Shown: piece after piece, positions 6,001 to 9,000 of the stretch | Layout of the letters: every line of letters begins with the position of its first letter | How positions within the stretch are numbered: position 1 is the stretch's first letter | NCBI RefSeq assembly: GCF_024298765.1 | Contig: NZ_CP101213.1 | Reading direction: 5' to 3' (one strand) | DNA length: 62,297 nucleotides | Source of the DNA: Escherichia coli | GTDB lineage: Bacteria; Pseudomonadota; Gammaproteobacteria; Enterobacterales; Enterobacteriaceae | Program-made: the position numbers

Positions 6001-9000
6001 GTAACCCGTTAGGGGCTGAACTGATGAAAGCGGTAAATGCAGCTTTTGATGTCTTGATGGCAAATATTGATAAAATAAATCAGTTCCAGAGCGCTGATGA
6101 ACATGCACGATATAATTACGGTGATGACCTGGAAAAAGTATTAAACGTTCTTTCTGGTTTATCTGGTCTGGTATTTGAAGTGATAGGTAACTGGGTATGG
6201 ATTAGTGGAGAAACTATTACACATAAGGAAACTTTAAAAGAAATCGGGTGTAAATGGGCGGCAAAGAAAAAACAATGGTTTTATCGTCCAGACGAACATA
6301 AAAGTTACTGGAATCGTGAAGAACACACGATAGAAGAAATCCGCGCAAAATACGGTACAACCGGACAGCGCAGGGCGACAGGGTGGCAACGCGTGGAAAC
6401 CAGAGCGTAACCAGAACGGGGGCGAGAAGCCCCCGATATCATACCAGCCCGTCTTTTGGGGCATCGAACCCAAAAAGACGGGAACAGCAGCCACGTAGCA
6501 AAAAGGGAAACAGATGAACTCTTTTTTTGAACAGTATCACCCTGTCTTTGAAGTTGTCTGCCGTATCCTGGGGAACGGCTGGCGCGTGAACAAACTTGAT
6601 GATTGTCCGTCTCGTATAAAACTGACGTCACCGCAGTTTAAAAATTACTCTGTGCATATTCGGATGGAAAAAGACCGATTTTCTGTTGTGGGGAGTGTGG
6701 ATAGTCGTTCCTGGAGTAGTCCGTATCATGTTTGTACGTTATCCAGGAAGCGGAATCCCGTTGATATAGCAGCCAATATCGAACGAAAAATTTTGCTAAA
6801 TGCTTCGCAGGAGGTGTTACAGGCGATTGAGTATGAGAAACGCCAGGCGGCAAAAAAGGACGAAATTCTGATCCTGAAAGGTATGTTATCGCAACTTGTC
6901 CAGCTTGAAAGCTGGTATGGGGCATTGACAGGCTTTAAAGCTGAAAATGGATTGAACGGTAAAGTCACCGAGCAGGGCGAGCGTTATGATTTGCAGATTA
7001 GGGGTTTGAGTATAGATCAACTTGTTAAAATTACAGGATATTTGAAACAGTTATGAGAAAAAACAAAGGGCGATTGACTTATTATCTTGAAGTGATTGAT
7101 AAAAAATACCATTTTGTAAAAAAAATAAGCAGTTATTCAAAGGAGTTCACTGACGGAAAAACAAAAAGAACAAAGAGAACGTTAAGTGAGCTGGTTTTTA
7201 ATGAAAGTGAGGTCGAGGCAATAGACTTTACAAAAAATGGTTTAAGACCTGTTGATAAGAATATTCTCTTAACTATGGTGAAAGAATATAAGGAGAGTGA
7301 TGCATGACTATTGAAAATACACCGGAAAACATAAAGAAATTACGAAAAAAAATTGGCCTTACCCAGACAGAGTGCGGTGAGATTTTTGGCGTAGGCTTAA
7401 GTACATGGCAGAAAAAAGAAGCTAAAACCCACAACCAGCTTAATTTATCGAAAGGTGAATTTGAGTACCTGTTATTACTTGCAGGGGAGCACCCTGAATA
7501 CGTCCTGCATAAAAAAGCTGAATCCCGCTCACCGGAGGAACCGTGAGCGAGAAGAAAAACACCACGACGCAGAAATCTAAGATATACAGTGTAAAGGTTT
7601 ATTTGTCTTTACATTGTAATTGTTCTTTGTCTTTACACAGTGTGTGTTTGTAACAGGGCGACTTTACATAATTGCGATTTTGCCTGGTGTGTTGTTGCGC
7701 CCGTAGCTCGCTGACGCTCACACGCGCAGTACAGCGCCCCGCCCTGCTGCAATGCACCAGGACGGCGTGAACTCGCTGGCGCTCGCGCTAACTGCGGCAT
7801 TCTGCGGCGCAAATCAGCATGATCATAGCCTGTTGGTCTGTTCTGGCTTTGCAGGGCGAAGGGATGGCCCTGTGCATCCTGGTATGTTCGTCAGCGGCTG
7901 CGCCGCGCTTCGGGGCGATGTGGCCCCGCTGCTCCCTGGTATTTTTTTTCGCCCCTTCTATCCGCTGGCGCGGATTAAAAAATGAGCAAACCATCAAATA
8001 ACTTGCTGTTTTCAGGCAATAAATCTTGATAATACATCTAAATAGATGTATTATTATTTCATCGAAAGGGGATTGGCTCCTTTCCTTCTTAAGTCCAAAC
8101 GGACAGGAGATTTAAAATGAAATTCACTTCAACCACGAATCATGTTTTCACATTCGAACGAGTAACGCTTTGCACGATTGTTCTTATTCATAAGGATACG
8201 GGACAACAGTATGTTGTCATATTTACGGATAACAATAAAATTCGTGACTATAAGACCGGAATTGTTTCTCAGTTTGGTGAACTTAAGCAGAGTGATATTG
8301 ATTTAATTCTTTTCTATCGGGACGAATATGAAAAATATTTTGACTCGTTAAATAATGGCGAGGAGTATTTGAGTTTTAAAGAATATATCGGATGTATAAG
8401 GGGAAAATAAATTATGAAAGGTGTGTTCAGGTTGCTGGAACAACCTGAACACGTTATCGACAATCAAAACTGAATGAGGTTTTTAAATGTCAACACGACA
8501 GATCGTACAGCTTGCTGACTCCCTTGTCAAAGGCTGGGAAACCAGAATTCCGGCAATGACGTGCACGGAGTGGGATCAATTCCGGTGGTGGTTAAACTAC
8601 CTGCAAGGGTATGAAATGTTTTAAATAACCGGGATAAATTCATATATGGGGAGAGTGTCATGCTCTCCCTTTCTTATTGGGTAGCGAGTTGTATTACATA
8701 TTTAGCTTTACGTTGTAAAGATTTTATTGTCTTTACAGTGTGGTGTGTTTTCCGGCGGTTGCGCTGCGCTTAGGGGTATGTGGCTTCGCTGCTCCCTGGT
8801 ATTTTCTTTCACCCTCCTATTTGTCCGATGACTTTTGACAACAACGCTATTTGTAACTATAATTAGTTGCATGTTGGCAAGGGATGGGATTATAGCGTAT
8901 GGGGAAAGCAGATAAGCTACTGGCAAAATTTTTAAACAGTAAAAAAACGTTTGAATGGGATGAACTCGTTGTTTTGTTTTCTTCTCTAGGATATGTCAAA

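What the first reader, a model, noticed from the sequence alone, without database searches (positions are those of the whole stretch)
6514..7546. Translationally coupled three-gene operon ending in an XRE-family regulator
Genes of 180, 84 and 80 aa overlap by ATGA at both junctions. Only the last has a recognisable motif, an XRE-type HTH. It has no upstream promoter module of its own and appears co-transcribed with the J-domain gene. This could be a toxin/antitoxin-like or regulator/effector unit.
Basis: seen in the sequence. Interest (0 to 1): 0.5.

Follow-up and report, generated by a model that had tools for sequence, protein, structure and literature searches.

The report
Plasmid establishment operon with its own repressor
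The three overlapping genes are real and sit in the first-transferred region of an IncI2 resistance plasmid; the last one most likely encodes the repressor that shuts off this region's repeated promoters, so this is a plasmid-establishment control circuit and probably not a toxin-antitoxin pair.

Summary
In detail: ORFs 6514-7056, 7053-7307 and 7304-7546 overlap by ATGA, are conserved as genes, and the last is an XRE-type HTH. The window is an IncI2 conjugative plasmid. The genes lie on the oriT-proximal side opposite the relaxase and point towards oriT.

The unit is not one three-gene block. It is two independently recombining pairs. One is cargo: the J-domain gene plus the 180-aa gene. The other is a regulatory cassette: the 84-aa gene plus the HTH.

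The key result concerns the sigma-70 promoter in front of the J gene, which is repeated twice more in the window. A 20-bp palindrome fills its -35/-10 spacer. Across 19 related loci that carry the HTH, this palindrome falls into 8 sequence classes. These match the classes of the HTH recognition helix one to one. A prophage that has J+180 but no HTH has no palindrome.

Published screens fit a regulator. The TP114 counterpart yajA is needed for conjugation but not for maintenance. pOXA-48 orf20, a tandem-duplicated relative, is essential.

The toxin-antitoxin reading is disfavoured. What the 180-aa and 84-aa proteins do biochemically remains unknown.

The parts
5804..5832 (+). Module promoter P2 that drives the J-180-84-HTH operon: -35 TTGATA, 17-nt spacer, -10 TATTAT.
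   Evidence: Consensus scan, 10 of 12 matches. Identical copies lie at 5074-5102 and 8026-8054.
5810..5829 (.). Operator O2: the perfect palindrome ATACATCTA-AA-TAGATGTAT, filling the promoter spacer. Inferred binding site of the 80-aa HTH protein.
   Evidence: Three exact copies in the 62-kb window against 0 expected by chance. The sequence class co-varies with the HTH recognition helix across 19 loci.
5833..5894 (+). Conserved 5' leader with two hairpins and the Shine-Dalgarno sequence AGGAG (5883-5887).
   Evidence: The hairpin next to the SD keeps pairing through compensatory changes (GTCC..GGAC / GCCC..GGGC / GCCG..CGGC) across plasmids.
5895..6410 (+). J-domain protein gene (171 aa), first gene of the operon. 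With the 180-aa gene it forms the cargo pair.
   Evidence: PF00226 DnaJ E 1.8e-11, above the cut-off. It lies directly upstream of the 180-aa homologue wherever the upstream DNA is available and uninterrupted, including a prophage.
6418..6434 (+). GC-rich hairpin GGGGGC-GAGAA-GCCCCC, 8 nt after the J-gene stop codon. Possible attenuator or mRNA-stabilising stem-loop.
   Evidence: Present in every plasmid locus examined, usually as GGGGGC-GAAA-GCCCCC. In the prophage it is replaced by a true terminator with a T-run. It has no T-run here.
6448..6482 (+). Second intercistronic hairpin, CCCGTCTTTTGGG..CCCAAAAAGACGGG.
   Evidence: RNA fold of 6400-6520 gives z = -4.8. pET49 shows compensatory changes. 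The hairpin is absent from several IncX loci.
6514..7056 (+). 180-aa protein gene of unknown function. Cargo partner of the J-domain gene.
7053..7307 (+). 84-aa basic protein gene (pI 9.6). Constant upstream partner of the HTH gene.
7304..7546 (+). 80-aa XRE-type HTH protein gene. Inferred autorepressor of promoters P1, P2 and P3.
   Evidence: MqsA HTH domain E 3e-5; PHROG 7950 'transcriptional repressor' E 1.6e-8; Aca3 E 2e-3. Single copy in the window. Operator co-variation. Experimental phenotypes of relatives.
5074..5102 (+). Module promoter P1, carrying an identical operator (5080-5099). It drives the 109-aa gene at 5165-5494.
   Evidence: The same 109-aa gene in another IncI2 plasmid (L023) sits behind a promoter that carries that plasmid's own operator class.
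8026..8054 (+). Module promoter P3, carrying an identical operator (8032-8051). It drives the 97-aa gene at 8117-8410.
   Evidence: In each related plasmid, the promoter just downstream of the HTH gene carries the same plasmid-specific operator.

Best explanation
The window is an IncI2 conjugative plasmid, and the finding lies in its leading (first-transferred) region. Promoter P2 (5804-5832) transcribes four genes: J-domain, 180 aa, 84 aa and HTH.

The 80-aa HTH protein most likely binds as a dimer to the 20-bp palindrome that fills the -35/-10 spacer of P2 and of its two copies, P1 and P3. That would block RNA polymerase. Because the repressor is the last gene of an operon it controls, the circuit would give a burst of expression when the plasmid enters a repressor-free recipient, followed by shut-off. 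This is zygotic induction with negative feedback.

The four genes form two evolutionary units. J+180 is exchangeable cargo; it probably recruits the host DnaK to some client, which is speculative. 84-aa+HTH is a specificity cassette that has diversified, together with its operators, into at least 8 classes. The 84-aa protein is most likely a non-essential partner or modulator of the repressor.

Shown here: gene structure, synteny, the modular split, and operator/recognition-helix co-variation. Inferred: DNA binding, repression, timing, and the role of the 84-aa protein.
For: 1. Plasmid identity and position. The window is 100% identical over the queried 1.9-kb stretch (5800-7700) to IncI2 plasmid pPK411 (MOBP relaxase, MPF_T mating-pair system). 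mobC and the relaxase gene lie downstream on the same strand. Relaxosome genes mark the lagging side of oriT, and leading-region genes are encoded on the transferred strand (PMC11541004).

2. Operator. ATACATCTA-AA-TAGATGTAT occurs exactly three times, each inside a TTGATA-17-TATTAT promoter, with 0 expected by chance.

3. Co-variation in 19 loci that carry the HTH. Operator half-site, then recognition helix:
- ATACATCTA with GVGLSTWQKKE
- ATACGAC with G(V/I)GLR(T/G)WQKKE
- ATACGCC with GVGIRTWQKKE
- (A)TACCATCA with GF(T/S)(L/Y)(S/T)AWQAKE (IncX1, X2, X3, X5, Mixta, Pantoea)
- TTACCGCA with GMSLSNWQRKE
- ATACCTCA with GIGLSSWQKKE
- ATAGGTCA with (S/G)M..R.WRRKE (R721, pH6437-2, pZ563-2, IncX6, Pantoea)
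- ATACCTGCA with GYQLNSWQMKE
There are no discordant cases.

4. Independence from the backbone. Both IncI2 and IncX4 backbones carry two different classes. The J gene is 99% identical between the window and IncX4 pTB602, yet operator and HTH differ. The same 109-aa gene sits behind different operators in two IncI2 plasmids. Every plasmid has two or more promoters with its own operator.

5. Negative control. A prophage with J+196-aa but no HTH has a TTGACA-17-TATTAT promoter with no palindrome.

6. Two units. Spearman correlation of pairwise identities is 0.63 for J/180 and 0.56 for 84-aa/HTH, and between -0.17 and 0.05 across the two units. R721-type plasmids replace J+180 with other small genes and keep 84-aa+HTH.

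7. Dimer. Two distant relatives are tandem fusions of two HTH units.

8. Experiments on relatives.
- TP114 yajA (pfam15731): insertions are tolerated for maintenance but depleted after conjugation.
- pOXA-48 orf20 could be deleted only when supplied in trans, and transconjugants that received the deleted plasmid stopped dividing.
- CRISPRi silencing of that operon causes loss of fitness and of the plasmid.
Against: - No binding or expression data exist for this protein. Operator and HTH are about 1.5 kb apart, so shared descent contributes to the concordance, and the number of independent class switches is small.
- A palindrome in a promoter spacer could also act as a DNA structure.
- TP114 yajA mutants survive in donors, so derepression is not lethal there. 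Their conjugation defect could instead mean that the protein activates something.
- I did not have the TP114 sequence. I mapped its genes onto ours by R721 gene names, gene order and the Pfam label.
- pOXA-48 orf20 is a distant, duplicated relative in a different genomic position (next to the par genes and nuc), and its promoter shows no clear palindrome.
- The conserved hairpins after the J gene leave open how much P2 transcription reaches the three genes.
- The homology between the 84-aa family and pOXA-48 orf19 is not demonstrated.
Confidence: 0.65

Rival explanations
1. Toxin-first type II toxin-antitoxin module. The 84-aa protein (or the 180-aa protein) is a toxin, and the HTH protein is its antitoxin and autorepressor, as in MqsRA or HigBA.
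For: Small overlapping genes with the HTH last. The best family matches are the MqsA C-terminal domain and 'antitoxin Xre-like HTH'. NCBI labels relatives that way. Toxin-antitoxin genes are common in leading regions. pOXA-48 orf20 cannot be deleted, while the upstream orf19 can.
Confidence: 0.12
2. The spacer palindrome is a structural DNA element, a hairpin or cruciform in the incoming single strand or in supercoiled DNA. It would control the promoter without a protein, and the HTH would regulate something else.
For: The palindromes are perfect, so they would fold in single-stranded DNA. The region is rich in structured repeats. Adjacent inheritance could by itself produce the class concordance.
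Against: The outer span stays at 20 bp (19 bp in one class) with conserved ATA..TAT ends and variable inner bases, as expected for a dimer operator. Arm length varies from 7 to 12, which a structural element should not tolerate as readily. The palindrome is absent where the HTH is absent. All promoters within one plasmid share one class, while homologous promoters in sister plasmids carry another.
Confidence: 0.1
3. The HTH protein is a positive regulator that conjugative transfer itself requires, not a repressor of establishment genes.
For: [quoted passage not shown]
Against: A site filling an optimal 17-bp spacer between good -35 and -10 hexamers occludes RNA polymerase (established knowledge of sigma-70 promoters). 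No such operator occurs near the tra, pil or nik genes in the window. pOXA-48 orf20 loss behaves like loss of a kor-type repressor.
Confidence: 0.08

Closest known systems
ArdK / CUP regulon of IncN plasmid pKM101 (Delver & Belogurov 1997, as cited in PMC6289460)
   Same: Repeated 'conserved upstream' promoter modules lie in front of leading-region genes. A plasmid-encoded repressor binds within them and also controls its own gene.
   Different: No sequence relationship to ArdK was detected in the family libraries. Here the operator is a spacer palindrome that has diversified into at least 8 classes, and the repressor always travels with an 84-aa partner.
kil-kor regulons of IncP / IncL plasmids (KorC)
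   Same: Small HTH repressors bind a palindrome between -35 and -10 of their own and other promoters. Losing them is harmful to the host or the plasmid.
   Different: The pOXA-48 88-aa HTH regulator (L021 6027-6293), possibly KorC, is not matched by our HTH profile. No kla, klc or kle genes are present here.
Aca (anti-CRISPR-associated) repressors at the end of acr operons
   Same: A short HTH gene ends an operon of variable small cargo genes that is driven by a strong promoter bearing inverted repeats. There is a weak sequence match to Aca3 (PDB 9vt3, E 2e-3).
   Different: No known anti-defence gene lies upstream. The match is too weak for membership.
pOXA-48 orf19-orf20 and TP114/R721 yaiB-yajA
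   Same: The same HTH family (profile E 6.5e-41 for orf20; R721 YajA 56% identical). The upstream partner gene is in the same position. These are the only relatives with experimental phenotypes.
   Different: orf20 is a fused double HTH, lies next to the par genes and nuc, and is essential for maintenance. yajA is needed only for conjugation. Neither paper identified targets or operators.
MqsA antitoxin (PDB 3fmy, 3gn5)
   Same: Best-matching solved HTH domain (E 3e-5). MqsA also binds a promoter palindrome as a dimer.
   Different: There is no N-terminal zinc-ribbon domain and no MqsR-like partner.

Membership tests
XRE-type helix-turn-helix DNA-binding proteins (superfamily) | Sequence match to HTH_3-like five-helix domains | tested here: met
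   Several related models match residues 5-65: PF15731 E 1.6e-6, PF20432 E 1.4e-5, TIGR03830 E 3.4e-7, PHROG 7950 E 1.6e-8, PDB MqsA HTH E 3e-5 and P22 C2 E 0.15. Every curated family cut-off is narrowly missed.
MqsA antitoxin family (PF15731 / TIGR03830) | N-terminal zinc-ribbon (two CxxC motifs) toxin-binding domain | tested here: not met
   The protein is 80 aa with a single cysteine. The match covers only profile positions 70-125 of 131.
MqsA antitoxin family (PF15731 / TIGR03830) | Adjacent MqsR (RelE-like) toxin gene | tested here: not met
   The upstream 84-aa protein has no family match and no RelE/MqsR-like fold.
Type II toxin-antitoxin system | Toxin that arrests growth and is neutralised by the antitoxin | not testable with these tools
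   This needs expression assays. The fold searches give no toxin-like hit.
Type II toxin-antitoxin system | The antitoxin gene cannot be inactivated while the toxin gene is intact | tested here: inconclusive
   From the literature only. TP114 yajA insertions are tolerated in donors, which argues against this feature, while hicB in the same screen is not tolerated. pOXA-48 orf20 cannot be deleted, which argues for it.
Leading-region repressor regulons (ArdK/CUP-like, kor-like) | Repeated promoter modules upstream of several genes on the leading side of oriT | tested here: met
   Three identical promoter-plus-operator copies at 5074, 5804 and 8026, on the side of oriT opposite the relaxase gene.
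Leading-region repressor regulons (ArdK/CUP-like, kor-like) | The repressor gene lies inside the regulon, with the operator in its own promoter | tested here: met
   The HTH is the last gene behind P2, which carries the operator. Binding itself is inferred from co-variation.
Leading-region repressor regulons (ArdK/CUP-like, kor-like) | Sequence homology to ArdK or KorC | tested here: not met
   No ArdK or KorC model appears among the Pfam or NCBIfam hits. The pOXA-48 88-aa HTH regulator is not matched by the HTH profile. It works like these systems but is not a member by descent.
Aca (anti-CRISPR-associated) regulators | HTH gene downstream of a known anti-CRISPR or anti-defence gene | tested here: not met
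   No upstream gene matches a known anti-defence or defence family. The Aca3 match has E 2e-3 only.
J-domain co-chaperones (for the upstream operon partner) | J domain with the HPD motif | tested here: met
   PF00226 at 44.4 bits against a cut-off of 27.8. The translation contains 'YHPDRNP'.

The most novel reading that the evidence does not exclude
The 84-aa+HTH pair and its spacer operators form an 'immunity-like' specificity cassette for plasmid establishment. At least 8 mutually orthogonal repressor/operator classes circulate among IncI2, IncX1-X6 and related plasmids, the main carriers of mcr-1 and NDM-5. On this reading they diversified because a resident plasmid of the same class would pre-repress, and so block, the establishment burst of an incoming plasmid. 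This would be a previously unrecognised layer of plasmid-plasmid interference. The 84-aa protein would be a new-fold modulator of the repressor. J+180 would be a new DnaK-hijacking establishment or anti-defence effector pair.
Probability: 0.25. Interest if true: 0.75.

Novelty: new variant of a known kind. Interest (0 to 1): 0.55.

Why it matters
IncI2 and IncX plasmids are the main vehicles of mcr-1 and blaNDM-5, yet how their first-transferred genes are controlled is undescribed.

Two published screens flagged relatives of this HTH as important without finding a mechanism: TP114 yajA is needed for conjugation, and pOXA-48 orf20 is essential. The operator/repressor assignment made here gives a concrete, testable mechanism. 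It also defines a regulon (P1, P2 and P3) and predicts cross-repression only between plasmids of the same class.

That prediction could explain some cases of plasmid interference, and it offers a handle for blocking plasmid establishment. The assignment also marks J+180, the 109-aa gene and the 97-aa gene as early-expressed establishment candidates.

Tried and rejected
- **Family searches.** Pfam, NCBIfam, PHROGs and PADLOC found nothing for the 180-aa and 84-aa proteins. Profile searches of the PDB sequences also found nothing. Remote homologues of the 180-aa protein carry no Pfam domain either.
- **The other palindromes.** I considered CTTTACAnTGTAAAG (11 sites) as the HTH target and rejected it. 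R721 keeps these sites although its HTH recognition helix differs. They flank parA and the adjacent gene for a ribbon-helix-helix protein.
- **Intrinsic terminator between J and the 180-aa gene.** Neither hairpin is followed by a T-run, so at most they attenuate transcription.
- **Internal promoter at 7252-7279** (9 of 12 matches). This is at chance level and I did not pursue it.
- **Rfam.** Only hok/sok elsewhere in the window.
- **Homology of the 84-aa family to pOXA-48 orf19.** The profile-profile comparison was negative. Only the divergent L010 partner matches orf19.
- **Other attempts.** The search for related loci with the broad alignment failed. The TP114 sequence could not be retrieved. 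The IncX3 deletion study could not be mapped onto our genes.

Full report
**What is there.** The window matches IncI2 conjugative plasmids at 100% identity over the queried 1.9-kb stretch (5800-7700), for example pPK411 (MOBP relaxase, MPF_T mating-pair system). The 84-aa gene has no Shine-Dalgarno sequence of its own. The HTH gene has AAGGAG 7 nt upstream of its start. Upstream lies a J-domain gene (5895-6410; PF00226, E 1.8e-11). Upstream of that is a sigma-70-type promoter, TTGATA-17-TATTAT (5804-5832).

**Position.** mobC and the relaxase gene lie downstream on the same strand, behind an inverted repeat at about 13.9 kb. Relaxosome genes mark the lagging side of oriT, and leading-region genes are encoded on the transferred strand (PMC11541004). 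The operon is therefore in the leading region and points towards oriT. In IncX plasmids the same block lies 2.5-3.5 kb upstream of taxA/taxC.

**The proteins.**
- The 80-aa protein is an XRE-type HTH. Its best matches are the C-terminal HTH domain of MqsA (Pfam E 1.6e-6; PDB 3fmy E 3e-5), 'antitoxin Xre-like HTH', PHROG 7950 'transcriptional repressor' and, weakly, Aca3. All fall just below the curated cut-offs.
- The 84-aa protein is basic (pI 9.6). Its model (pLDDT 88.6) is a four-strand meander plus two helices. It has no significant structural relative and no toxin-like fold.

**Two units, not one.** The order J, 180, about 85 aa, HTH recurs in IncI2, IncX1-X6, pET49 and in Edwardsiella, Morganella, Xenorhabdus, Mixta, Pantoea and Erwinia plasmids. 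Divergence is decoupled, however. Between the window and IncX4 pTB602, J is 99% identical and the 180-aa protein 94%, while the 84-aa protein is 40% and the HTH 69%. Over 66 locus pairs, the Spearman correlation of pairwise identities is 0.63 for J/180 and 0.56 for 84-aa/HTH. Across the two units it lies between -0.17 and 0.05.

R721, pH6437-2 (both IncI2) and pZ563-2 (IncX4) lack J and the 180-aa gene. They keep the 84-aa/HTH pair behind other small genes. Conversely, a prophage and a metagenomic contig carry J plus the 180-aa homologue without the pair. So J+180 is cargo, and 84-aa+HTH is a cassette.

**The operator.** The promoter spacer is filled by the perfect palindrome ATACATCTA-AA-TAGATGTAT. 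It occurs three times in 62 kb, always inside the same promoter (5080, 5810, 8032), against 0 expected by chance. Homologous promoters in other plasmids keep a 20-bp palindrome with ATA..TAT ends but different inner bases.

Across 19 loci with an HTH, the palindromes fall into 8 classes. These coincide without exception with the classes of the HTH recognition helix (the full list is under 'evidence for'). Several facts argue against mere linkage:
- One backbone type can carry two classes (IncI2, IncX4).
- Unrelated backbones share a class.
- The near-identical 109-aa gene sits behind different operators in two IncI2 plasmids.
- Every plasmid has two or more promoters with its own class.
- The prophage without an HTH has a good promoter with no palindrome.

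Two distant relatives encode fused double HTH proteins, which supports a dimer as the working form.

The other repeated palindrome, CTTTACAnTGTAAAG, has 11 sites between 3865 and 10648. R721 retains it despite its different HTH, so it belongs to another protein.

**Experimental anchors.**
[quoted passage not shown] The gene before it, yaiB, matters only in the gut. hicB is essential for maintenance in the same screen.
- R721 gives the gene order yahA, yaiA, 74-aa, yaiB, yajA. A module promoter with operator lies at 8411, just before the 74-aa gene. That explains why yahA and yaiA insertions are not polar.
- In pOXA-48, orf20 is a double-HTH member of this family (profile E 6.5e-41). It can be deleted only with complementation, and transconjugants that receive the deleted plasmid stop dividing. 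Deleting orf19 has no effect. CRISPRi of the operon costs fitness and leads to plasmid loss.
- Neither study identified targets.

**Interpretation.** The best reading is a self-repressed establishment regulon. It resembles ArdK/CUP, kor and Aca systems in how it works, but it is not related to them by sequence. The toxin-antitoxin reading is weakened by four points: the lack of a toxin-like fold, the tolerance of yajA insertions, the presence of the operator at three promoters, and the harm caused by silencing the whole pOXA-48 operon.

**Open points.**
- Whether P2 transcripts pass the conserved GNRA-type hairpin after the J gene.
- Whether the protein represses, which is inferred from the operator's position.
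- What the 84-aa partner and the J+180 cargo do.

The TP114 mapping rests on gene names, gene order and the Pfam label, not on sequence.

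Noticed in passing
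window 3865-10648 (e.g. 4588-4602, 7582-7621, 8706-8720, 10064-10103, 10609-10648): A second palindrome family, CTTTACAnTGTAAAG, often in pairs about 25 bp apart. It has 11 sites, all in this 7-kb stretch, against 0.26 expected by chance. R721 keeps it despite a different HTH class, and it flanks parA and the adjacent 93-aa gene (3553-3834, minus strand), which has a weak ribbon-helix-helix match. It is probably the site of that ParG-like protein (yafA, scored essential for conjugation in TP114).
   Followed up: partly
window 4721-5020, 7673-7972; partial copies at 5632-5760 and 8773-8814: A GC-rich (59%) repeat of about 300 nt lies upstream of the module promoters. It is shared only with IncI2/IncX-type plasmids (1189 records, several copies each) and is unannotated. 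The minus (transferred) strand folds strongly as single-stranded DNA (z = -5.4). It is a candidate single-strand initiation or single-strand promoter element. ORFs inside it (e.g. 7752-7985) are annotated 'hypothetical protein' in GenBank and are probably spurious.
   Followed up: partly
window 6418-6434 (and the same position in L002-L004, L012, L024, L025, L028-L030): A GGGGGC-GNRA-GCCCCC hairpin 7-10 nt after the J-gene stop codon is conserved in all plasmid loci, even where the flanks diverge or extra small ORFs are inserted. The prophage homologue has a true terminator at that position. Its function is unknown: attenuator or mRNA-stabilising element.
   Followed up: partly
window 8117-8410: The 97-aa gene behind promoter P3 is homologous to the 74-aa R721 gene, which corresponds to TP114-060. 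That gene is a 'core' IncI2 gene scored essential for conjugation in the TP114 screen. It has no known family.
   Followed up: partly
window 5833-5894 (also 5103-5164 and 8055-8116): A conserved 5' leader with two hairpins. The one next to the Shine-Dalgarno sequence keeps pairing through compensatory changes in IncI2, IncX and pET49 plasmids, which suggests control of translation or mRNA stability for all module-driven genes.
   Followed up: no
window 16567-16908: About 19 tandem copies of an 18-nt unit, which would encode a six-residue repeat, inside the relaxase (LPD7-domain) gene.
   Followed up: no
window 2459-2630: A sok antisense RNA (Rfam RF01794, 98 bits) next to a hok/gef gene. A 125-nt direct repeat lies at 2293-2417 and 2490-2614.
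   Followed up: no
L021 3229-4207 (pOXA-48) and L010 869-1608: Here the HTH is a fused tandem duplicate (159-164 aa). The upstream partner genes of these two loci resemble each other (32% identity, E 8e-9) but not, detectably, the 84-aa family.
   Followed up: partly
window 7053-7307: The 84-aa gene has 31% GC against 41-43% for its neighbours, which fits a separate origin for the cassette.
   Followed up: no
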